A stretch of DNA of 64,000 nt from Escherichia coli (GTDB lineage Bacteria; Pseudomonadota; Gammaproteobacteria; Enterobacterales; Enterobacteriaceae). The stretch's first letter is position 1. Each line of letters begins with the position of its first letter. The translations under genes were made by a program, and so were the position numbers. The stretch lies in the NCBI RefSeq assembly GCF_044324875.1, contig NZ_CP172185.1; one strand, given 5' to 3'. Below are positions 10,260 through 21,710 of the stretch, in pieces. The notes beneath the pieces were generated by a model. It did not search any database. It had not been told where the DNA came from and saw only the letters and a program-made list of their open reading frames with translations.

Positions 10260-12749
10260 ATGGAGTTCGTCAGAGACTGGCAAAAACCGCGCCCCGCTAT
10301 CGGGCGCGAAGGCTTACCCGTACCTGAAACCGCACTGGATACCATCCTGAAGTGTTACCGCGCAGACGAAGAGCGCGCACTGCACGCTGAAGAGCAGGGT
10401 CATCCGCTTGCGGGCACAACCATCGGTAACGCGATCGACAAGTGGGAAGGCGCACAGGAGCGCCAGGAAGAGGCCATCACGCTCACACAGGAAGCGAGAA
10501 GACACCCGCCCACCCTTATTGAGGAAACCCTCAAAGAGCTGGACACCCTGCCCAAGTGGTTGAGGCTGCCGCTGATTAAGCACCTGAACTTTTTAAGGCG
10601 CAAACAGGAGGACGAACAGCAGAAAGGCAAGCGCGGCAAGGACACCCGCAAATATGAGCGCTTCCTGAAAAACGGCATCCCCGCACGTCTTCGCCGTATT
10701 CGTGAGATTAACGCTCGCTTTGCACCGTTAAGTTTTCAGGCCGCTGCCATGCGCGAGAGTCTGGAAGAACTGATCACACTGCCGAACCTGAGCCGTGAAC
10801 GCATCCAGAAAATAGCCGTACTGCTTGCCAGCGCCGTTAAAATGCATCTTGCCGACGCAATGGACAAGGCCCGCGAAATAACAGGGAACGACAAAGACGA
10901 CAACCTGAACAACTGGCTGATTGCCTACCAGTATATTGGTCGCCGTGTCCTGAAGCTGGGGATCACCCCACCATACTGGAGCGCCCTTGAACTCCGCCCC
11001 GACCGCAGAAGCCCCCCGGACGTGACACTGGTTCCGGGCGCTGTTTTGCGCCTGAACGACGCCGAATGGTGGAATAAAAAACTTCGCCAGATGCACGACG
11101 TCTGGCGTGAGGAACTTTTACGTGCAGCGGGCCTTGTATCCCGCCAGACCTCCGTTTATGTGAGCCGTGAAGCGCTGGCAGACTTCCGCGAAAAACAGGC
11201 CCGTACCCGCGATTTTCTCAAAGCGCACGACGTGGAGAACGAAGACGGCGAACGCATCAGTCTGGAAGATATCTACTACGCCAGTACATCCAACCCGCAT
11301 AACCGCCGCAACGAGATGATGGCGTGCGTTAAGGGAATGGAGCTTATCGCACAGGAACGCGGCGACGTGGCCTTCTTCGTCACGGTCACAGCCCCGTCTC
11401 GTTTTCACAGCGTCACCGACGCAGGCACGCTGAACCCGAAATACAAAGGCGCAACCGTAAAGGACGCCAGCGACTATCTGGTTTATAACTTCTTCGCCTC
11501 CGCCCGCAAACTCATCAAAAAAGAGAAGCGGGGCTGGTACGGCATTCGCACCGTGGAGCCTCACCACGACGGCACGCCCCACTGGCACATGCTGGTATTC
11601 ACAAGCCCTGAGAACGAAGAGCGCATCACGGAAATCATGTGCAATGCCGCCATTCGCGAAGACCGGGCAGAGCTGGGCGACGACATCACCCCGCGCTTCA
11701 AGTGCGAGAAGATAGATCCCGAAAAAGGCACGCCAACCAGCTACATCGCCACCTACATAGGCAAAGGCATTGACGCCGCTGCATTCGGCGACACGGATCC
11801 AAAAACAGGTAAACCGCCCGTTGACCACGAAAGCGGAAAACCTATGGCGGACACCGTGGAAAACGCCGTCGCCTGGGCGCGCCTGCATCGCATTCGCCAG
11901 TTCCAGTTCTTTGGCCTCCCTTCCCGTCAGGTGTGGCGTGAGTTCCGCCGCCTTGCCGGACAAATGGCACGCAACCCGAAGGGGCCGCAGGCACTGACCA
12001 ACCCCAAAGCCGACGCCCTCCTTGTTGCAGCCGATACGGGGTGTTTTGCCAGCTACATCATGCATCAGGGCGGTGTGCTCATTCCCCGTAGTGAATATCT
12101 GGCCCGCACAGCCTACGTCACCGCAGAAGAGCCGAACAATTACAGCGAATTCCCCGAGCGCATTTACGGTATCCGCATGCCGGAACTGGGGGAGGACTTC
12201 ACGTTATGCACCCACCCGGAAGAGTGGAAAATCGTCAGAAAGGAACCGGAACCAGACAACCGCACGGGCGAGGGTTTTGACCTTCAGGGCGGCCCCGCCG
12301 CCCCTTGGACTCGTGGCAATAACTGTCACCCTGACGAAAAAACAACCAACAACAGCACACAAACCGGACAGTCAGAGTGGGCAAAACTGCCCCCCTTACC
12401 CCCATCGTCGGACGGTTTTGTGAGCTGGTTTAAGTCGCTTAAGAGGCCGGACAGGAAAAAACTACAAAGATTGCTCAAAAAACGCACCGAAGAGAGTCGC
12501 CAGAACGCCAGCGGCGGCACCGACACACCCACCGACACCATTAACCTGGGCGTTGTGCTGCCGGAACTGCCGGAAATCGTGCAAGTCCGCCGCGATCTGG
12601 AAGCGCTGGGCGCGGACTTCCCCGAAGCAATGGCCCATTCCGTCTTTATGGGTGCCCGCGTTCGTCTGGGTAACGGTCGCACCGTTCACCGCGACGAGCA
12701 GACCGGGCGCATCACCGTCACCAGTCTGCAACCGGAGGCGAAACCATGA
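10260..12749 (+). CDS. A: Replication initiation protein, P2 gene A family (rolling-circle endonuclease)
   Basis: 829 aa; contains an HUH-type metal-binding motif (HDGTPHWHMLVF) and a downstream tyrosine motif (SYIATYIGKG), as in rolling-circle initiators; position as for P2 A. Confidence 0.85.
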   Translation: MEFVRDWQKPRPAIGREGLPVPETALDTILKCYRADEERALHAEEQGHPLAGTTIGNAIDKWEGAQERQEEAITLTQEARRHPPTLIEETLKELDTLPKWLRLPLIKHLNFLRRKQEDEQQKGKRGKDTRKYERFLKNGIPARLRRIREINARFAPLSFQAAAMRESLEELITLPNLSRERIQKIAVLLASAVKMHLADAMDKAREITGNDKDDNLNNWLIAYQYIGRRVLKLGITPPYWSALELRPDRRSPPDVTLVPGAVLRLNDAEWWNKKLRQMHDVWREELLRAAGLVSRQTSVYVSREALADFREKQARTRDFLKAHDVENEDGERISLEDIYYASTSNPHNRRNEMMACVKGMELIAQERGDVAFFVTVTAPSRFHSVTDAGTLNPKYKGATVKDASDYLVYNFFASARKLIKKEKRGWYGIRTVEPHHDGTPHWHMLVFTSPENEERITEIMCNAAIREDRAELGDDITPRFKCEKIDPEKGTPTSYIATYIGKGIDAAAFGDTDPKTGKPPVDHESGKPMADTVENAVAWARLHRIRQFQFFGLPSRQVWREFRRLAGQMARNPKGPQALTNPKADALLVAADTGCFASYIMHQGGVLIPRSEYLARTAYVTAEEPNNYSEFPERIYGIRMPELGEDFTLCTHPEEWKIVRKEPEPDNRTGEGFDLQGGPAAPWTRGNNCHPDEKTTNNSTQTGQSEWAKLPPLPPSSDGFVSWFKSLKRPDRKKLQRLLKKRTEESRQNASGGTDTPTDTINLGVVLPELPEIVQVRRDLEALGADFPEAMAHSVFMGARVRLGNGRTVHRDEQTGRITVTSLQPEAKP

Positions 12750-13156
12750 ACCGTTATCATTGTGTACTGCCGCGCCACTACTTCGGTCAGATTATGCGCT
12801 CGCGTATTCCGGCGGTCACGCTGCGAAACCTGAGCACGGTACCGCAGCCGGGCGATGAGCTGGAAATCGCCGTAGCAGGCCCTGACCGTTCAGCCAGCTG
12901 CGTGACCGCCGACGTGCTGAACGCCGTGCCCGTAGGTGGTGACTGGCTGGTTGCCATCCGCTTCCGCCAAGACCCGTTCGCACCTGAACCGCTCACCCCC
13001 GCAGGCCGCATCATGCAGAACTGGCGGGATGAAGGCGCGAAGGCGAACTGCGAAAAACTGATTAACAGGATTGCCACGACAAACCGACATGCCGCGCTGG
13101 CGCGCCGGATATACCCCGCAAAACCGACACAACCAACAGGAGTAAAACGCCCATGA
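12746..13156 (+). CDS. Hypothetical protein (136 aa), start overlaps the gene A stop
   Basis: ATGA overlap with A; unknown function. Confidence 0.5.
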   Translation: MNRYHCVLPRHYFGQIMRSRIPAVTLRNLSTVPQPGDELEIAVAGPDRSASCVTADVLNAVPVGGDWLVAIRFRQDPFAPEPLTPAGRIMQNWRDEGAKANCEKLINRIATTNRHAALARRIYPAKPTQPTGVKRP

Positions 13157-13292
13157 AAAGAATCGCCGGAACCCACAGAGACACAAAAAGACACCAAAAG
13201 CAGCAAAGACACATTGAATAAACGAAAACTGGTGATATGATTTGTTCAAAGATGTTATGATTTATTCATAAGTAACCTTTCAGGCTTAAGTT

Positions 13293-13667
13293 ATGAATAA
13301 ACAGGATTTTGGACTTGATACCCTTTTGAGTATGCATGGTTACCAGCATCACATGGATAACGGGTACTGGTGGAAAATTGAGGCTTACCGGGTAAGTCCA
13401 AGTCCGTTCAGACCTCACGGGATACGCTACAATCTGACGTTACATGACCGCTACAATTCGCGTGTGTTTGGTATGGACAACGCACATGGAATAAAACCGC
13501 CAAAGAAGGGAAGATTTACAGGAAAGTTAACTGTTTATGATCATGTGCACCGTACCCCGGTGGATAAAGGTTATCCCTATGAGTTTGTATCCGCAGAACA
13601 ATTGTTATCTGATTTCTTTGATAACGTTGATCGGCTCATTAACGAAGTTACAAAGGGGAAAGCATGA
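13293..13667 (+). CDS. Hypothetical small protein (124 aa), first gene of an overlapping two-gene module in the A-to-Q cargo region
   Basis: ORF with own upstream promoter-like region (direct repeats atgatttgtt / atgatttatt); stop overlaps the next start (ATGA). H/Y/W-rich; no motif I can assign with confidence. Confidence 0.6.
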   Translation: MNKQDFGLDTLLSMHGYQHHMDNGYWWKIEAYRVSPSPFRPHGIRYNLTLHDRYNSRVFGMDNAHGIKPPKKGRFTGKLTVYDHVHRTPVDKGYPYEFVSAEQLLSDFFDNVDRLINEVTKGKA

Positions 13668-14050
13668 AAGCCCGCATCGGGATCATCCCGGAAAAAGTCC
13701 TGCGTCAGCGCCTGATTGAAATTGCCAAGGGGGAGCGGAAACCACACCCCGACGAGCCAAGGGTATGGTTTTCATCCATCAATGCGGCGGGTCAGGCGCT
13801 GAGCAATGAAAATATCTCCCTTCTTCGTCTTATGGATGAGGAGAAACCGCAGACCATGACCGAACTTGCGGAGTTATCCGGCAGAAAACTGAGTAACCTG
13901 TCTGTAACCCTGAAAATGCTGAGCAGCTACGGTTTTGTCAGTCTGGAAAAGAAAGGAAATACCGTACACCCGAAGGCACTTTTTACCGATTTTGAAATCA
14001 TCGTTGATCCGTCCGTCGGTTCAGTACATCGCGCCACCGCCCGCCCCTGA
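13664..14050 (+). CDS. Putative winged-helix DNA-binding protein (128 aa), second gene of the two-gene module
   Basis: Central MarR/winged-helix-like segment (MTELAELSGRKLSNLSVTLKMLSSYGFVSLEKKG); translationally coupled to 13293..13667. Confidence 0.6.
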   Translation: MKARIGIIPEKVLRQRLIEIAKGERKPHPDEPRVWFSSINAAGQALSNENISLLRLMDEEKPQTMTELAELSGRKLSNLSVTLKMLSSYGFVSLEKKGNTVHPKALFTDFEIIVDPSVGSVHRATARP

Positions 14051-14063
14051 AGTGTGCAATAAA

Positions 14064-14090
14064 CAGCCCCGGTCGGGGCTGTTTTTTATT
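14064..14090. terminator. Bidirectional intrinsic terminator between the converging 13664..14050 and 14086..14460 genes
   Basis: cagcccc-ggtc-ggggctg hairpin followed by ttttttatt. Confidence 0.6.
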
Positions 14091-14460
14091 CCAGAATCAG
14101 CTGTTCAGGTGTGCAGCCGTACAGTCTGGCAAGGCGCTCAATATTTGCCCTGCGCGGGCGTTCTGTTCTTTCGAATTCGGACACGGTAGCCTGCCTGATA
14201 CCCAGCGCATCCGCCACCTGCTTTTGCGTCATTCCGCGATAGATTCGCCACGCCGCCTGCATGGTGCAGCCACGTTCCGAGAGGATGTTGACCACCTCGT
14301 TGGGATACAGCGTATCAGGCGATGCACTCGGTTCGTTCTGGACGTCCTCGTAGAGTTCGTCAAGGTCGCTGTCTCCTGCCAGTTTTTCAAACAACGCCAC
14401 TGGCAGAATGACGGATACCCTGTTACCCGCACCGTCAGTAATAAACTGAATCTGACTCAT
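14086..14460 (-). CDS. XRE-family helix-turn-helix protein (124 aa), candidate antitoxin
   Basis: C-terminal HTH_XRE-like segment (MTQKQVADALGIRQATVSEFERTERPRRANIERLARLYG); downstream of and co-oriented with a RelE/ParE-like ORF. Confidence 0.6.
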   Translation of the reverse strand: MSQIQFITDGAGNRVSVILPVALFEKLAGDSDLDELYEDVQNEPSASPDTLYPNEVVNILSERGCTMQAAWRIYRGMTQKQVADALGIRQATVSEFERTERPRRANIERLARLYGCTPEQLILE

Positions 14461-14533
14461 TTGCCCCTCCTGCTAAACATCGGTTTATTTTTTAATTTGC
14501 TGCCGGTGATAAAAAACGGCGGGTCGCCCCGCC

Positions 14534-14806
14534 TTAGTATGTTGTCGAGGTTCTCCGCTGAATACGGAGGATCCTGATAACCACTATCTGCCCTCCCTCA
14601 ATCGTGAACCTGACACGGTAATGATTTACCCTGAGTCTGTACTCCCCGCCCGAGTCAGTGAGCTTTTTAATATCCAGATTCTGGAACTTCGGATAGCCAT
14701 AAAGCGCGTTAACTTTCTCGCGTAAGGATTTCTGATCCCTCGCTGGCAAAACCCGTAAATCTTTGATTGCCCGAGGGGTCCACATGATTTCAGTCGTCAT
14801 AAACAC
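14534..14806 (-). CDS. RelE/ParE-superfamily toxin-like protein (about 88-90 aa; start GTG 14806 or ATG 14800)
   Basis: N-terminal ...WTPRAIKDLRVL... and C-terminal YRLRVNHYRVRF...IVVIRI segments resemble RelE/ParE/HigB-type toxins. Confidence 0.6.
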   Translation of the reverse strand: MFMTTEIMWTPRAIKDLRVLPARDQKSLREKVNALYGYPKFQNLDIKKLTDSGGEYRLRVNHYRVRFTIEGGQIVVIRILRIQRRTSTTY

Positions 14807-14851
14807 ACCGGAAGCAAATTATTAAAGAGCCGTGCCCGCTGGCACACCTTA

Positions 14852-14880
14852 AATATAGGTTTTAACCCCTATATTGTCAA
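14852..14880 (-). promoter_or_regulatory. Sigma70-like promoter (TTGACA-N17-TATATT on minus strand) with an embedded 7-bp inverted repeat operator, upstream of the RelE-like gene
   Basis: Minus-strand ttgaca / 17-bp spacer / tatatt; spacer contains atatagg...cctatat palindrome (plus 14853..14874). Confidence 0.55.
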
Positions 14881-15057
14881 ACAAAATCCCTATATCATGA
14901 AGTAAAAAAGCACCTCCCGCGACCTCCCTTTCCGGTGCACGAAAGTGCACAAATTTGCACAATTTTTTTGAACGACTTTTTGCCCTTCCGGCCCGTGTGG
15001 CGTCTGGATCCGTCGGGGATCCGTGCGTGCACGAAAAAAGGCCTTTTTCTGCGCGCA

Positions 15058-15076
15058 GGTGACGGGGGAACAGCCC
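15058..15076 (+). other. Candidate cos (cohesive end) 19-mer ggtgacgggggaacagccc
   Basis: GC-rich 19-mer in the non-coding region between early/cargo genes and the portal gene; matches 13 of 19 positions of the P2 cos sequence as I recall it (GGCGAGGCGGGGAAAGCAC). Tentative. Confidence 0.3.
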
Positions 15077-15389
15077 GCGTTTCAGGGGGTAAATAGCATT
15101 CCCTGAACGATGTTGCAGTGACACAACAGAATGGCTGTATTTCTCACGCTGAGCGTGAAAAAGACGTAAGGGCTTTTGATTTGATGGGGTGAAAGATAAG
15201 GCCGTCAAAATCGCACTGAGGCAGCGAGAATATGTCGTCAGAGTTGCGGGGTTGCGTAAGCATCCGCCCGGCGATGATGGCTACAGGGCTGGAGATGTTG
15301 TGAAATTATCTGAAGGAATAACCAGCTTGCAGGAGAACCCGGGCAAAGTCAGAATAGCGGCAGGCATCAACTCAAAAGAGGATAATGTC

Positions 15390-15893
15390 ATGAGCCACTT
15401 TAATGATTTATGCCAGATCAATCGTGAAGCTGAAGAAAAACGCGCTGAGGCAGCTCAAATTTTGCGGGATGAAGCGGCAAGGCTGATTGATTTCTATGAA
15501 GAATGGCTGGGGCTTCCATCCATGTACTGGGAAGACGATGATGGCGACCTGCACCGCTACGTGGAGACAGGCTTGCCATGTAAGACAGCGGCGGATTTTA
15601 GTCCTCTTTCAGTCCACAATATCGCATCTGCACCAGACAATATTTTCCGCATGGCCGTACGAACCTGGGTAAAGTCATCTGACAGCAGCTACCCGGTAAG
15701 CGTGGTTATTGCACTTGAATTATATTCAGTAGATGCGGAACGGGTGTCTCTGAGAGTCCGGGTGGAAGACGATATTTCTGTTCGCGTATTTATCAATAAA
15801 CCCAGCGAAGAAGCCTGGGGCGATGTTGTTATGCACATGAAAAAGCACATCGCTAATCACCTGAAAAAGCGAGCGCCATCAGCACTTCGTTAA
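15390..15893 (+). CDS. Hypothetical protein (167 aa from ATG 15390 with AAGAGG ribosome binding site), orphan gene next to the portal gene
   Basis: ORF 15189..15893 with best start at 15390; acidic, no recognisable motif; preceded by about 580 bp without credible coding potential. Confidence 0.55.
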   Translation: MSHFNDLCQINREAEEKRAEAAQILRDEAARLIDFYEEWLGLPSMYWEDDDGDLHRYVETGLPCKTAADFSPLSVHNIASAPDNIFRMAVRTWVKSSDSSYPVSVVIALELYSVDAERVSLRVRVEDDISVRVFINKPSEEAWGDVVMHMKKHIANHLKKRAPSALR

Positions 15894-15908
15894 GCAGAGC
15901 TGGAGAGT

Positions 15909-15933
15909 CGGGGCATAAATTTTTTATGCCCCG
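15909..15933. terminator. Bidirectional hairpin (11-bp stem cggggcataaa / tttatgccccg) between the orphan gene and Q
   Basis: Perfect 11-bp stem, 3-nt loop, A/T tracts on both sides. Confidence 0.6.
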
Positions 15934-15959
15934 GCGAAGCAGCAGACAAGCGAAGCGCG

Positions 15960-17015
15960 TCAGGATATGGGCCGGGTGTCTAACAGTGCGTAAGGGTTAA
16001 AACGGATCACCTCTTCGCCCAGCCAGTCGTTGACGTGTTTCATTGCTTCCATGACGGGCATCAGTTCGTTAATGGCAAACACACGGGCTGCCTTCTCCAC
16101 ATCCCCGAATGACCCCTTCTCACCCGGCATGGCCCCCATCAGCTGAGGTGGCACGCGGTGCACAGCCAGCACGTCATCACGCGATGCGGCCTTGACGTTC
16201 ATGAACTCATCCTTTGCGGTGATTTGCTGAAACGGCAAAATCTGTACGCCATCCTTACCACCTCCCGCCGCGTGGATGAGCAGATTTTTAAACGCCCCGC
16301 CACCACGCGCGCTTTGCAGCGTTTCCCGCAGTTTTTCCATGCTTTCACGGTCAACCTGCGCCGCACCGATGTAGACAATACAGCCCGCGTGTGAGCCGTT
16401 ATCGTAGTAGAGCTTGCGGAAGATATCGGCGGAATGTGACAGGCTGGCAGACAGCAGGCCGCCCAGGTAATCCGGCATCCCGTAAATCTCCTGGTTGATA
16501 TCAGGATTCATCAGGTGGCATATCGTCCCCTCACGAAAGCGGTACTCTTCCTGTCCTTCCTGTATATACCACCATGATTTCATATCGCTGCCACGTCGCA
16601 TGTATTTCGCCAGCGCCCGGCGCAGGGCCAGCGGTTCGCCAAGCATGTTGCGCCGCAGCTCAAGACAGGCATTACCGAACACAAACCAGTCCATCGCCAC
16701 CCCGGCGAACTCCTGGCGGGACAGCAGAGGATGTGGAATATAGCAGCCCAGCAGCACATTACGTTTGAAGCTGAGCGCCGACTGGTGCCAGGACGTCTGG
16801 CGGGCAGCCCGTGCCAGTCCGTACCAGTCAACGGGCGTTTCAAACCACCGCCCGTTGTCGGCGCAGTACATGCTGTCCAGCAGGTCGGCCCCTGACAGCC
16901 GGTAAGGTCCTTCAAACGTGAAGGCACTCAGTGTCGGGTCGCTTCGCAGGGAATCCGCAAGGCTGCCCTGCGCTGCGCGGGCGTTCGTACGTCGTTGTTT
17001 ATTTTTTCTGCTCAT
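15960..17015 (-). CDS. Q: Portal protein, P2 gpQ family
   Basis: 351 aa (P2 Q is about 344 aa as recalled); divergent from the O-N-M-L capsid operon and adjacent to P as in P2. Confidence 0.85.
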   Translation of the reverse strand: MSRKNKQRRTNARAAQGSLADSLRSDPTLSAFTFEGPYRLSGADLLDSMYCADNGRWFETPVDWYGLARAARQTSWHQSALSFKRNVLLGCYIPHPLLSRQEFAGVAMDWFVFGNACLELRRNMLGEPLALRRALAKYMRRGSDMKSWWYIQEGQEEYRFREGTICHLMNPDINQEIYGMPDYLGGLLSASLSHSADIFRKLYYDNGSHAGCIVYIGAAQVDRESMEKLRETLQSARGGGAFKNLLIHAAGGGKDGVQILPFQQITAKDEFMNVKAASRDDVLAVHRVPPQLMGAMPGEKGSFGDVEKAARVFAINELMPVMEAMKHVNDWLGEEVIRFNPYALLDTRPIS

Positions 17016-18766
17016 CAGAACTCCGTAACACTGAAGGGGGCGGCATCATGTTCACCGCCGACAGGTTCGTTGATAACGGCCAGCATGGTGGCCCATGCAA
17101 GATCGCCATGGCTTACGCCTCTTGCGCGATCTGTTTCGTAGGTGATAAATCCGGCCTGCGTTTTTGTTTTGCGTACCGCGTTAAAGGCGCTCACCAGTTC
17201 GCGCTCGCTGCGGTCGTACTCCCACCGCCCGGCGCGCATGAGCTGCAGCATCTTCAGAACCAGCGTGCGCTTTGATGACAGGGTGAAGGTGTAGGGAATG
17301 GCTGCCGGAAAAAAGCGCTTCACAATCTGATACACCGCATCCCCGTGACCGCCGGTTACGTCAATACCGATATGCTCAACGTTATAGCGAAAGGTGAACT
17401 CTTCAATGACCTTCGCCTGCGCCTCAAACTCCAGCCCCTGCACCCGCCGCGTCTCCACGGTGCGAAAACGCCCGCCCGGTACGGCTGGCGGCACCACCAC
17501 GACAACCGCCCCGCTGTCACCGTTCCCGCTACTGCCGTTGGCGTCGTACCCAATCCACACAGGGCGGTTCCCCATCGGACGCGGTGCAAACGGCTTCCAG
17601 TCCGGCCACTCGTCGTATCCGTCAACACCGCAGCCAATCAGGATATTCAGGTTAAATGCCGATTCCCCTTCGCGAGCAAATTCACACATGTAGAGATTGC
17701 GGAACTCGTCTTCAGTGTTATTGCGCCGGATTTTGTCAATGTTGGTTAACGTCCATCCCTGACTGACCACATCTTCCAGCGTCACAATTTGCCGCCAGAT
17801 ATAGTCAGGACAGATAAGGCCGTTATGAAGCGCATTCCAGCTCACATCAAAATGCTGACGTTTATGAGTACGAAGCCCTTCATTCCAGTGATCGCCGTTC
17901 CAGTATGCATACGCCTCATGTGTTTCACTTGATGGCGTGGAAAAATAGGTACACCGCAAACCATCCAGCGTTGCCATAGCAGCAGCCACCTTGCGCAGCT
18001 CTGCGAAACGCCCCGTCCAGAAAAACTCATCAAAATACAGATTCCCTGTGTACGCTTGCGCGGTGGCCGCAGAAGTGCCGAGAAAATGCAGCTCTGCACC
18101 GTTGGAGAGGATGACTTTATCGCCCCCTTTCAGTTCCACATCAACTTCAGATGCAGCCTTCTGAATAATGCTTTTAAACTGGAGCGCCTGACGACGAGAC
18201 GCAGACAAAAAAATCTGGTTACGCTGGTAAGGTTGTGCCACATCGTCACGCAGCGCCATCAGCAGCGCTTCCTGCGCAAAATACCAGGTCGCCCCAATCT
18301 GGCGGGATTTCAGGATCATCCTGTCAGTAATTCCGGCACGCTCACAGGCACCGATAGCATCAAGCCATTTGCGCTGGTGTCCGGCCAGCCTGTCGGTAAT
18401 TTTTTCCCGCAGCGCCGCGATCTGTTCCGGCGTGAAATGATTTTTGCGTTTTTTCGCCCGGCCTTTCTTTCCTGTTGCCGTCTCATCCGGCAGACCGTCA
18501 TGCAGCTTTTTAAGCTGACGGGTCAGCAAATCAATTTCCTTAAAGTCCCCGCCTGTTTTATTCTGTTTTTCCGTGAGCTGAATGAGTCGCGCATCCATGG
18601 ACTGCGTGACACGCTGAACCGGGGGCGTCTCATCCCACTGGTCGCGTTTTTTCCACGAATGGATCGTGTTCTGGTTGATACCCATAAGGCGGCAAATTTC
18701 CGCAACAGGGTAACCCTGCCAGTACAGCTGGCGTGCCCGCTGGCGAACAAATGTATCCTGAATCAT
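17015..18766 (-). CDS. P: Terminase large (ATPase) subunit, P2 gpP family
   Basis: 583 aa; N-terminal HTH-like segment and ATPase-sized body; Q-P pair on the strand opposite to the capsid operon. Confidence 0.85.
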   Translation of the reverse strand: MIQDTFVRQRARQLYWQGYPVAEICRLMGINQNTIHSWKKRDQWDETPPVQRVTQSMDARLIQLTEKQNKTGGDFKEIDLLTRQLKKLHDGLPDETATGKKGRAKKRKNHFTPEQIAALREKITDRLAGHQRKWLDAIGACERAGITDRMILKSRQIGATWYFAQEALLMALRDDVAQPYQRNQIFLSASRRQALQFKSIIQKAASEVDVELKGGDKVILSNGAELHFLGTSAATAQAYTGNLYFDEFFWTGRFAELRKVAAAMATLDGLRCTYFSTPSSETHEAYAYWNGDHWNEGLRTHKRQHFDVSWNALHNGLICPDYIWRQIVTLEDVVSQGWTLTNIDKIRRNNTEDEFRNLYMCEFAREGESAFNLNILIGCGVDGYDEWPDWKPFAPRPMGNRPVWIGYDANGSSGNGDSGAVVVVVPPAVPGGRFRTVETRRVQGLEFEAQAKVIEEFTFRYNVEHIGIDVTGGHGDAVYQIVKRFFPAAIPYTFTLSSKRTLVLKMLQLMRAGRWEYDRSERELVSAFNAVRKTKTQAGFITYETDRARGVSHGDLAWATMLAVINEPVGGEHDAAPFSVTEF

Positions 18767-20927: not shown

Positions 20928-21710
20928 ATGCTGACACCGGCACAGGCTCATTTCCAGCGCGTGATGGCTTTACGGGCAGGAACGGCAGCAGAAAACGAGG
21001 ATATCGTGGCCCGCACGGCTCATGAGCAGGTCCTTCACCGTCTGCGCCTGGCACAGCAACGCATAAAGGGCGTCCAGGCAAAAGCGGCAAAGGCCGCGCT
21101 CAAGCGTGAAATGCTGCCGGGTTTTGCAGGCTGGATAGACGGCACGCTGGAAGCCGACGGCGGACAGCAGGATGAGGTGATAGCCACACTCATGGTGTGG
21201 GCCGTGGACTGTGGCGACCTGGCGCTTGCACTGCGCATCGGGGATTATGTGGTTCGCCACAACCTCACGATGCCTGACAACTTCGGGCGTACGGCAGCCA
21301 CGGTACTGACCGAGGAAATCTGCAACCCTGTTCTGACACAGGCCGGAACGGATGCACACGCCGATTTGTCCGGCTACATCGAACCGCTGGACACCCTCTG
21401 GCAAATTGTCGCGAACCGGGACATGCCCGATGAGGTCCGCGCCAAGCTGTGCAAGGCATGCGCCTTTGCCCGTCGTGGCCTGACCGATGCCGACAGCATG
21501 GCGGTGAGTCTGAAGCTGTTCCGTGAGGCAATGCACCTTAACCCGAATGCGGGGGTAAAACGTGAGATTGCCACGCTTTCACGGGCCCTGAAAAAGGCCG
21601 GACAGGATGAAGCCGCTGCCGCACAGGAGCCTGCGGCACAGAAAGATACAACCAGAGAACAGACCACGACGCCGAAGGCGAAAGCGAAAGCGAAGGCGAA
21701 ACGTGGTTAA
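20928..21710 (+). CDS. M: Terminase small (endonuclease) subunit, P2 gpM family
   Basis: 260 aa, position after N; Lys/Ala-rich C-terminal tail. Confidence 0.8.
   Translation: MLTPAQAHFQRVMALRAGTAAENEDIVARTAHEQVLHRLRLAQQRIKGVQAKAAKAALKREMLPGFAGWIDGTLEADGGQQDEVIATLMVWAVDCGDLALALRIGDYVVRHNLTMPDNFGRTAATVLTEEICNPVLTQAGTDAHADLSGYIEPLDTLWQIVANRDMPDEVRAKLCKACAFARRGLTDADSMAVSLKLFREAMHLNPNAGVKREIATLSRALKKAGQDEAAAAQEPAAQKDTTREQTTTPKAKAKAKAKRG

What the first reader, a model, noticed from the sequence alone, without database searches (positions are those of the whole stretch)
15058..15076. Candidate cos 19-mer
ggtgacgggggaacagccc matches 13 of 19 positions of the P2 cohesive-end sequence as I recall it, in the orientation expected relative to Q. 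Defining cos matters for deciding which cargo genes sit at which genome end.
Basis: partly seen in the sequence, partly recalled or inferred. Interest (0 to 1): 0.3.

Follow-up and report, generated by a model that had tools for sequence, protein, structure and literature searches.

The report
Cohesive-end site of P88-like prophage
The 19 bases at 15058-15076 are very probably the site where a P2-family (P88-like) E. coli prophage cuts its DNA for packaging, an ordinary and expected phage feature, but the evidence is its conserved surroundings, because the 13-of-19 match occurs by chance elsewhere in the window.

Summary
The sequence is as described. GGTGACGGGGGAACAGCCC lies at 15058-15076 and matches the P2 cos, read from the P2 record, at 13 of 19 positions. 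It is left of portal gene Q in the P2 orientation.

That match alone is at chance level: 16 sites in the window score at least 13/19.

- **Repeat scaffold:** P2, 186 and P4, whose records start at their cohesive ends, have TGCAT repeats at -123/-124, -111, -101 and -29 from the cos start. The window has TGCAC at -122, -112, -102 and -30 from 15058. This is the only such array in the window.
- **Intermediate sequences:** relatives with the same scaffold carry GGTGACGGGGGGAAAGCCC (15/19 to P2) or GGCGAGGCGGGGGAGCAAG (first 12 bases identical to P2) at the same spot.
- **Satellite:** a satellite-like island lacking portal and terminase shares only 14936-15100 with the prophage, as P4 shares only cos with P2.
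- **Packaging genes:** homologues of portal, large and small terminase are intact.

The functional cos is probably about 14936-15100. Nick positions are uncertain by 1-2 nt, and virion ends were not tested. On this placement a 167-aa unknown ORF sits at the left genome end, and a toxin-antitoxin-like pair and other ORFs at the right. This is a new member of a known kind, of low interest.

The parts
14936..14960 (+). Three direct TGCAC repeats at 10-bp spacing (14936-14940, 14946-14950, 14956-14960), at -122, -112 and -102 from the predicted cos start. Proposed terminase recognition element, cosB-like by inference.
   Evidence: This is the only cluster of at least 3 TGCAC within 30 nt in the window on either strand. 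P2, 186 and P4 have TGCAT at -123/-124, -111 and -101. The repeats are highly conserved among relatives and present in the satellite L010.
15028..15032 (+). Fourth TGCAC repeat, 72 nt after the third and 30 nt before the 19-mer. It marks the start of the counterpart of the P2-family 55-bp cos core.
   Evidence: the fourth repeat is at -29 in P2, 186 and P4, -30 here, and -31 in P88, L009 and L010. The interval from repeat 3 to repeat 4 is 72 nt in all of them. The BLAST match to the divergent prophage L009 starts here, at 15027 (H78).
15033..15050 (+). Spacer with an A-run and a T-run (GAAAAAAGGCCTTTTTCT). Its centre varies in sequence and length among relatives.
   Evidence: Folding as a hairpin is no better than shuffled sequence, so no structural role is claimed.
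15051..15057 (+). GCGCGCA, the conserved left flank abutting the predicted top-strand nick.
   Evidence: At least 90% conserved in 105 unique contexts. Present in L009, L010, P88 and the L133 class.
15058..15076 (+). GGTGACGGGGGAACAGCCC, the predicted 19-nt cohesive-end sequence (5' overhang by analogy with P2 and 186). The register is uncertain by 1-2 nt.
   Evidence: The identical 19-mer occurs left of Q in phages whose portal is only 65-99% identical. With an anchor independent of the 19-mer it is the majority variant (77 loci) at this position.
15077..15092 (+). Conserved right flank GCGTTTCAGGGGGTAA. The similarity shared with the satellite ends at about 15100.
   Evidence: The H78 match ends at 15096 and the H77 match at 15100.
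15390..15893 (+). Cargo ORF of 167 aa with unknown function, lying between cos and Q. It would sit at the left end of the packaged genome.
   Evidence: phrog_5091, E 3e-52; no Pfam or PADLOC hit. Absent from P88, P88_4B11 and 500465-2, whose sequence diverges from the window from about column 514 of alignment A1 (about 15320-15330). The tQ-like hairpin shared with P88 resumes at 15901-15935.
15960..17015 (-). Portal protein, gpQ homologue.
   Evidence: PF04860; 44% identity to P2 gpQ.
17015..18766 (-). Terminase large subunit, gpP homologue, with an N-terminal HTH-type Terminase_5 domain.
   Evidence: PF03237, PF17289 and PF06056; 46% identity to P2 gpP.
20928..21710 (+). Terminase small subunit, gpM homologue.
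   Evidence: PF05944; 37% identity to P2 gpM.
10260..12749 (+). Replication endonuclease, gpA homologue. It forms the left border of the cos-proximal variable region.
   Evidence: PF05840, E 5e-102.
12746..14806 (.). Cargo block that would sit at the right end of the packaged genome. It holds ORFs 12746-13156 (+), 13293-13667 (+), a wHTH protein 13664-14050 (+), an HTH_3 protein 14086-14460 (-) and a RelE/ParE-like toxin 14534-14806 (-).
   Evidence: A sigma-70-like promoter at 14880-14852 (-) faces the toxin gene.

Best explanation
15058-15076 is the cohesive-end (nicking) sequence of the cos site of a P88-like (Xuanwuvirus-type) P2-family prophage. The whole packaging signal is about 165 bp, 14936-15100. 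It comprises three TGCAC repeats, a 67-nt gap, a fourth TGCAC, an A/T-run spacer, GCGCGCA, the 19-mer, and GCGTTTCAGGGGG. By analogy with P2 and 186, the phage terminase (gpP at 17015-18766 and gpM at 20928-21710) recognises this region. It makes nicks staggered by about 19 nt, leaving 5' overhangs, and the DNA is threaded through the gpQ portal. What is shown here is the sequence, its position and orientation, the shared repeat scaffold, the intermediate sequences, the sharing with a satellite, and the intact packaging genes. What is inferred is the nicking itself, the overhang length and polarity, and the idea that the TGCAY repeats are what terminase binds. On this placement the linear virion genome starts with the 19-mer, then about 250 bp of conserved non-coding DNA, the unknown 167-aa ORF and Q. 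It ends with gpA, four or five cargo ORFs including a RelE/ParE-like toxin with an HTH partner, the TGCAC repeats and the 19-mer.
For: 1) Repeat scaffold. TGCAY repeats lie at -123/-124, -111, -101 and -29 from the annotated cos start of P2 and 186 and from the cohesive-end sequence that opens the P4 record. They lie at -122, -112, -102 and -30 from 15058, and at -123, -113, -103 and -31 in P88 and L010. The composite pattern occurs once in the window. With 1.1e-4 + strand sites per position reaching 13/19, a match at one of three allowed offsets from the fourth repeat has a chance of about 3e-4.
2) Bridging sequences at the same position. L009 has GGTGACGGGGGGAAAGCCC, 15/19 to P2 and 17/19 to the window. 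When loci are retrieved by the repeat anchor alone, the position holds GGTGACGGGGGAACAGCCC in 77 loci and GGCGAGGCGGGGGAGCAAG in 25. The latter has its first 12 nt identical to P2 and is followed by CGCGCGC as in P4. One locus has GGCGCGGCGGGGCTACCAC, 15/19 to P2.
3) Local conservation. The only non-coding similarity to the divergent prophage L009 is 15027-15096 (H78), the counterpart of the 55-bp P2/P4 core cited in PMC5694545 and PMC9594776.
4) Satellite. L010, L029 and L033 encode a toprim protein, an integrase and an Ogr/Delta protein; L010 and L033 also encode a divergent P2-family capsid, which the short contig L029 does not reach. No portal or terminase homologue was found in any of them. 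L010 shares 14936-15100 with the window at 79% identity. This parallels P2 and P4, which share only cos.
5) The exact 19-mer lies left of Q in phages whose Q is 65-99% identical to the window's.
6) Q, P and M are full-length homologues of the P2 proteins.
7) The reported cos of Ralstonia phage phiRSA1 begins GGTGAGGCGGGG, so GGTGA is an attested start in the family.
Against: The 13/19 match alone is at chance level. No physical-end evidence was obtained. No GenBank phage record, IMG/VR contig or metagenome contig in the samples examined starts or ends exactly at the site. An un-anchored MAFFT alignment places the P2 cos start 2 nt left of 15058, because the spacer is 1-2 nt longer here, so the register could be off by 1-2 nt. 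The flanks also differ from P2: GCGCGC precedes the 19-mer here but follows it in P2, 186 and P4. Whether this particular prophage is inducible is unknown.
Confidence: 0.85

Rival explanations
1. The cos region is right, but the nicks lie elsewhere in it. One option is the 19 nt just before TGCGCGC (15031-15049), if TGCGCGC is aligned with the TGCGCGC that follows cos in P2 and 186. Another is around 14981, where the GenBank record of P88_4B11 starts.
For: P2 and 186 have TGCGCGC directly after cos, and the window has TGCGCGC at 15050-15056. LR595891 begins at the equivalent of window 14981.
Against: 15031-15049 overlaps the fourth TGCAC. It would lie 3 nt rather than 29 nt from that repeat's start, and it is the least conserved and length-variable part of the core. 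It also has no similarity to any known P2-family cohesive end. The authors of LR595891 state that nt 1 was chosen relative to reference genomes after trimming contig-end repeats, so it is not an experimental end (PMC6969025). The record's end and start are contiguous in P88.
Confidence: 0.08
2. The 19-mer is a chance resemblance and has no role in packaging.
For: Sixteen equally good matches to P2 cos exist in the window.
Against: None of the other matches sits next to a TGCAY scaffold. This one is invariant across phages with 65-99% portal identity and is shared with a satellite. At the same position, relatives carry sequences up to 15/19 identical to P2 cos, or identical to it over the first 12 nt.
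Confidence: 0.03
3. The site is the cos, but the ends differ in kind from P2, for example an overhang of 17-22 nt or a shifted register, so the 19-mer as delimited is only approximate.
For: The spacer from the fourth repeat is 25-26 nt here against 24 nt in P2. The alignment register is ambiguous by 2 nt. The right-flank GCG motif starts at +20 here but at +21 in P2.
Against: In the candidate register, identity to P2 is 13/19 for the window and 15/19 for L009. In the -2 register my hand count from the sequences gives 10/19 and 9/19. P2, 186, P4 and phiRSA1 are all described with ends of about 19 nt.
Confidence: 0.15

Closest known systems
cos of coliphage P2 (NC_001895, cosL 1-19) and of its satellite P4
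   Same: The position is the same, between the gpA-side accessory genes and portal Q, and so is the orientation. Both have a G-rich 19-mer (13/19 identical), four TGCAY repeats at nearly the same distances, and a core running from the fourth repeat to just past the 19-mer. The terminase and portal are homologous. Both are shared with a satellite.
   Different: The repeats are TGCAC rather than TGCAT. Six of the 19 positions differ. The spacer is 1 nt longer. GCGCGC lies on the left rather than the right flank. There are 883 nt between cos and the Q stop instead of 167, because of a lineage-specific conserved block plus an inserted ORF. The terminase proteins are only 37-46% identical.
cos of coliphage 186 (NC_001317, 1-19)
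   Same: The scaffold is the same (TGCAT at -124, -111, -101 and -29), with a 19-nt end annotated as cut at the 5' end of the top strand.
   Different: Only 11/19 positions are identical. The repeats are of the TGCAT type.
cos of Ralstonia P2-like phage phiRSA1 (reported cos, cited in PMC5694545)
   Same: It begins GGTGAGGCGGGG. The GGTGA start is as in the window, and cargo ORFs also lie between cosL and the gpQ homologue.
   Different: The 3' half of the 19-mer is unrelated, and the host and lineage are distant. Its flanks were not examined here.
Lambda cos (cosQ-cosN-cosB)
   Same: The general logic is shared: a nicking site flanked on one side by repeated elements that would serve terminase recognition.
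   Different: The sequences and terminase families are unrelated, the overhang is 12 nt, and the repeats (R sites) lie on the side where packaging starts. This is an analogy only, drawn from general knowledge.

Membership tests
P2-family (Peduoviridae) cos site | Lies in the non-coding gap between the replication-gene (gpA) side accessory region and the portal gene Q, in the orientation where the overhang sequence reads toward Q | tested here: met
   gpA is at 10260-12749 (+), the 19-mer at 15058-15076 (+), and Q at 15960-17015 (-). This is the same layout as P2 and as described in PMC9122126.
P2-family (Peduoviridae) cos site | A G-rich 19-nt sequence related to the known cohesive ends (P2, 186, P4) | tested here: inconclusive
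   Identity is 13/19 to P2 and 11/19 to 186, which is at chance level on its own. Bridging variants make it convincing: 15/19 in L009, the first 12 nt identical to P2 in the L133 class, and 15/19 in L137, all at the same position.
P2-family (Peduoviridae) cos site | A conserved core of about 55 bp around the cohesive end (Ziermann and Calendar 1990, as cited in PMC5694545 and PMC9594776) | tested here: met
   The stretch from the fourth TGCAY through the 19-mer to the GCG flank is conserved: 15027-15096 is the only non-coding match to the divergent prophage L009 (H78). The identification of this stretch with the published 55-bp core is my inference from the P2/P4 comparison. The original paper could not be read.
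P2-family (Peduoviridae) cos site | An upstream TGCAY repeat array at fixed distances (-123, -111, -101, -29). This feature was observed here in P2, 186 and P4 and is not taken from the literature. | tested here: met
   The window has repeats at -122, -112, -102 and -30, and the array is unique in the window.
P2-family (Peduoviridae) cos site | Cognate packaging proteins are present: terminase gpP and gpM, and portal gpQ | tested here: met
   Pfam hits and 46%, 37% and 44% identity to the P2 proteins; all are full-length ORFs.
P2-family (Peduoviridae) cos site | The region is shared with dependent satellites that lack packaging genes | tested here: met
   L010 shares window 14936-15100 at 79% identity, and L029 and L033 carry the same satellite-type 19-mer. 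No terminase or portal homologue was found in any of them. Actual dependence on a helper is inferred.
P2-family (Peduoviridae) cos site | Virion DNA carries complementary 19-nt 5' single-stranded ends produced by staggered nicking at this sequence | not testable with these tools
   No record or contig in the samples examined ends at the site, and most are prophage-derived. Sequencing of virion DNA ends is needed.

The most novel reading that the evidence does not exclude
The TGCAY repeat array may be the recognition element of P2-family terminases, with its sequence setting packaging specificity. E. coli P2-like phages would then fall into at least two cos specificity groups. The TGCAT group contains P2, 186 and the P4-like satellites. 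The TGCAC group contains the P88-like phages and a so far undescribed small satellite that encodes its own divergent P2-family capsid protein and lacks sid, psu, portal and terminase. That satellite is found in 56 of 5426 complete E. coli genomes.
Probability: 0.3. Interest if true: 0.5.

Novelty: new member of a known kind. Interest (0 to 1): 0.2.

Why it matters
Placing cos fixes the ends of the packaged genome of a very common E. coli prophage type. The 181-nt region is found in 1139 of 5426 complete genomes. It therefore says which accessory genes lie at which end of the virion DNA. The unknown 167-aa ORF lies at the left end. The toxin-antitoxin-like pair, the wHTH gene and two unknown ORFs lie at the right end. 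Both sides fall in the cos-proximal hotspot already described for P2-like phages (PMC9122126; PMC5694545). A defined cos of about 165 bp is also what one would need to build cosmids or to recognise satellites mobilised by P88-like helpers. None of this is surprising to a specialist.

Tried and rejected
1) A search for P2 cos with up to 3 mismatches found nothing in the window.
2) I counted all matches of at least 12-13/19.
3) The start of GenBank record LR595891 (equivalent to window 14981) looked like a rival end. I rejected it because the authors chose nt 1 by comparison with reference genomes.
4) I considered aligning the window TGCGCGC with the TGCGCGC that follows cos in P2. I rejected this on spacing and conservation.
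5) I tested the A-run/T-run spacer as a hairpin. It is no more stable than shuffled sequence in any of eight phages, with z from -1.5 to +1.4, so no structure is claimed.
6) Rfam on 14400-16050 gave only one sub-threshold hit, gyrA RNA at 22 bits against a gathering score of 45, at the tQ-like hairpin.
7) I looked for contigs ending exactly at the site in IMG/VR and in metagenomes. None was found. The nearest locus ends are 3-22 nt away and may be storage-block boundaries, as L138 and L023 proved to be, so this is uninformative.
8) PADLOC found no known defence system among the cargo ORFs, only weak HTH-type hits.
9) The original cos paper (PubMed id 2265763) and the P2 review are not held. 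The 55-bp core is therefore cited second-hand.

Full report
**Observation.** Window 15058-15076 reads GGTGACGGGGGAACAGCCC. I did not rely on a recalled P2 sequence. The annotated record NC_001895 gives cosL 1-19 as GGCGAGGCGGGGAAAGCAC, and NC_001317 (phage 186) gives GGCGTGGCGGGGAAAGCAT. The window 19-mer matches P2 at 13/19 and 186 at 11/19. The orientation claim is also right. A portal gene (PF04860, 44% identical to P2 gpQ) lies at 15960-17015 (-), and a large terminase (46% identical to gpP) at 17015-18766 (-). Both are to the right of the 19-mer, as in P2.

The number offered is not evidence, however. Sixteen sites in the window reach at least 13/19 to P2 cos on the two strands, and nothing is within 3 mismatches.

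**What the element is.** The region belongs to a P88-like (Xuanwuvirus-type) member of the P2 family (Peduoviridae). The non-coding stretch 14936 to about 15320 is 87-90% identical to phages P88, P88_4B11, 500465-2 and others. The 181 nt around the site occur in 1139 of 5426 complete E. coli genomes, with a 100% match in strain LH50-c. The gene order is:
- gpA (10260-12749);
- a block of accessory ORFs (12746-14806);
- the non-coding region;
- a 167-aa ORF (15390-15893);
- Q and P;
- further right, the small terminase gpM (20928-21710; 37% identical to P2 gpM).

**Evidence that the 19-mer is the homologue of the P2 cohesive end.**

First, a repeat scaffold. I joined the right and left ends of P2, 186 and P4, whose linear records begin with the cohesive-end sequence (annotated as cos in P2 and 186). 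In all three, TGCAT repeats lie at -123/-124, -111, -101 and -29 from the first base of cos. In the window, TGCAC repeats lie at -122, -112, -102 and -30 from 15058. In P88 and L010 they lie at -123, -113, -103 and -31. The interval from repeat 3 to repeat 4 is 72 nt in every case. The composite pattern occurs once in the window, at 14936-15032 (+). Sites reaching 13/19 on the + strand occur at 1.1e-4 per position. Finding one at one of three allowed offsets from the fourth repeat therefore has a chance of about 3e-4.

Second, bridging sequences.
- A divergent P2-like prophage (L009, E. coli AMSCJX04) has GGTGACGGGGGGAAAGCCC at the same position. This is 15/19 to P2 and 17/19 to the window. 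Its only non-coding similarity to the window is 15027-15096.
- To avoid selecting on the 19-mer, I retrieved IMG/VR loci by the repeat anchor TGCACAAATTTGCACAA. At the homologous position, 77 loci carry the window's 19-mer.
- Twenty-five loci carry GGCGAGGCGGGGGAGCAAG. Its first 12 nt are identical to P2 cos, and it is followed by CGCGCGC as in P4.
- One locus carries GGCGCGGCGGGGCTACCAC, 15/19 to P2.
- The reported cos of Ralstonia phage phiRSA1 starts GGTGAGGCGGGG (PMC5694545).

Third, conservation. In 105 unique contexts the best-conserved flanking columns are:
- the three repeats and the T-run after them (14936-14975);
- the fourth repeat with its A-run (15026-15038);
- GCGCGCA (15051-15057);
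- GCG...CAGGGGGT (15077-15091).

The spacer centre and everything beyond about 15095 vary. The exact 19-mer sits left of Q in phages whose portal is only 65-99% identical to the window's.

Fourth, a satellite. L010 (E. coli OkiPb01677), and L029 and L033 in IMG/VR, encode a toprim protein, an integrase and an Ogr/Delta zinc finger. L010 and L033 also encode a 236-aa protein and a divergent P2-family capsid protein, which the short contig L029 does not reach. No homologue of the portal, the terminase or gpA was found in any of them. L010 shares window 14936-15100 at 79% identity, and all three carry the 19-mer GGTGACGGGGGAACAGCAC. P2 and P4 likewise share only their cos (PMC9122126). This bounds the cis-acting signal to about 165 bp.

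**How it most likely works.** By analogy with P2 and 186, terminase (gpP and gpM) recognises the region and makes nicks staggered by about 19 nt, at 15057/15058 on the top strand and 15076/15077 on the bottom strand. The DNA is then packaged through the gpQ portal. After injection the 5' overhangs anneal and are ligated.

The anatomy and homology are shown. The nicking, the overhang polarity and length, and the role of the TGCAY repeats as the terminase binding site are inferred. One published observation fits a role for sequences outside the 55-bp core. Lengthening the flanks of the cos region raised P2 cosmid transduction by about 10^4-fold (PMC9594776).

The register is uncertain by 1-2 nt. 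The spacer is 25-26 nt here against 24 nt in P2, and an un-anchored MAFFT alignment places the P2 cos start 2 nt to the left. Sequence identity favours the candidate register. It gives 13/19 for the window and 15/19 for L009. For the -2 register, my hand count from the sequences gives 10/19 and 9/19.

**Rivals.**
- *GenBank record LR595891 starts at the equivalent of 14981.* Its authors chose nt 1 relative to reference genomes (PMC6969025), so this is not an end.
- *The window's TGCGCGC aligns with the TGCGCGC that follows cos in P2.* This would put the overhang at 15031-15049, which overlaps the fourth repeat and is the least conserved, length-variable part.
- *Pure chance.* This is excluded by the context evidence above.

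No physical-end evidence could be obtained. No phage record, IMG/VR contig or metagenome contig in the samples ends at the site, and most are prophage-derived.

**Consequence for cargo.**
- *Left end of the packaged genome:* the 19-mer, about 250 bp of lineage-conserved non-coding DNA, the 167-aa ORF (phrog_5091, function unknown), a tQ-like hairpin at 15901-15935, then Q. The ORF is absent from P88. It lies in the cos-to-Q insertion hotspot already noted for 186-related prophages, phiCTX and Ralstonia phages (PMC5694545).
- *Right end:* gpA, ORF 12746-13156 (phrog_14984), ORF 13293-13667, a wHTH protein 13664-14050 (PF25212), an HTH_3 protein 14086-14460 (-) and a RelE/ParE-like toxin 14534-14806 (-). 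The toxin gene is preceded by a strong sigma-70-like promoter at 14880-14852. The TGCAC repeats and the 19-mer follow.

**Comparison and novelty.** This is a member of the P2-family cos sites. Every defining feature testable in silico is met, and the one that defines a cos physically, the virion ends, is untested. The P88-type variant is not annotated in the P88, P88_4B11 or 500465-2 records, and I found no paper that describes it. It is best called a new member of a known kind, and interest is low. The more novel reading is that the TGCAY array defines packaging-specificity groups, each with its own satellites. That reading is open but unproven.

Noticed in passing
L010 586-8002 (E. coli OkiPb01677, NZ_AP042483.1 about 146063-153479); also L029 and L033: A satellite-like island of about 8 kb next to hpt/can. 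It encodes a toprim protein (889 aa), a tyrosine integrase, GGTTACA iteron-like repeats, a P88-type cos, an Ogr/Delta zinc finger, a 236-aa unknown protein and a divergent P2-family major capsid protein (34% identical to the window's gpN). It has no sid, psu, portal or terminase. The ogr-to-capsid segment occurs in 56 of 5426 complete E. coli genomes. Its gene content is not P4-like, and I found no description of it in the papers searched.
   Followed up: partly
window 15093-15322: A non-coding block of about 230 bp right of cos is conserved among P88-like phages; P88 annotates two tiny ORFs there. It is not shared with the satellite, so it is probably not needed for packaging. Its function is unknown and it has no Rfam match.
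   Followed up: partly
window 14086-14900 (- strand): A RelE/ParE-like toxin gene (14534-14806) is followed by an HTH_3 gene (14086-14460). A near-consensus promoter (TTGACA-17-TATATT, 14880-14852) and an inverted repeat AATATAGG...CCTATATT lie upstream. This is a toxin-first toxin-antitoxin-like cargo pair abutting the cos repeats.
   Followed up: partly
window about 15323-15900: The 167-aa ORF (phrog_5091; no Pfam or PADLOC hit) is an insertion relative to P88, lying between the conserved block and the tQ-like hairpin at 15901-15935. This is the classical cos-to-Q hotspot for accessory (moron) genes.
   Followed up: partly
IMG/VR loci L133, L140, L135, L158, L180 (cos regions): A second class of phages has P88-type TGCAC repeats but the 19-mer GGCGAGGCGGGGGAGCAAG, a P2-like left half flanked by GCGCGC on both sides. 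The repeat type and the cohesive-end sequence therefore assort independently.
   Followed up: no
L001/L004 (LR595891.1, Escherichia virus P88_4B11): Nucleotide 1 of this public record lies 77 nt upstream of the predicted cohesive end, inside the cos region between repeat 3 and repeat 4. It was set by comparison with reference genomes and should not be read as a genome terminus.
   Followed up: yes
window 13664-14050: A small wHTH protein (PF25212 HVO_A0114-like; weak CasR/CARF-associated HTH hits in PADLOC) follows two unknown ORFs in the gpA-to-cos variable region. This could be part of an uncharacterised accessory or defence module.
   Followed up: no
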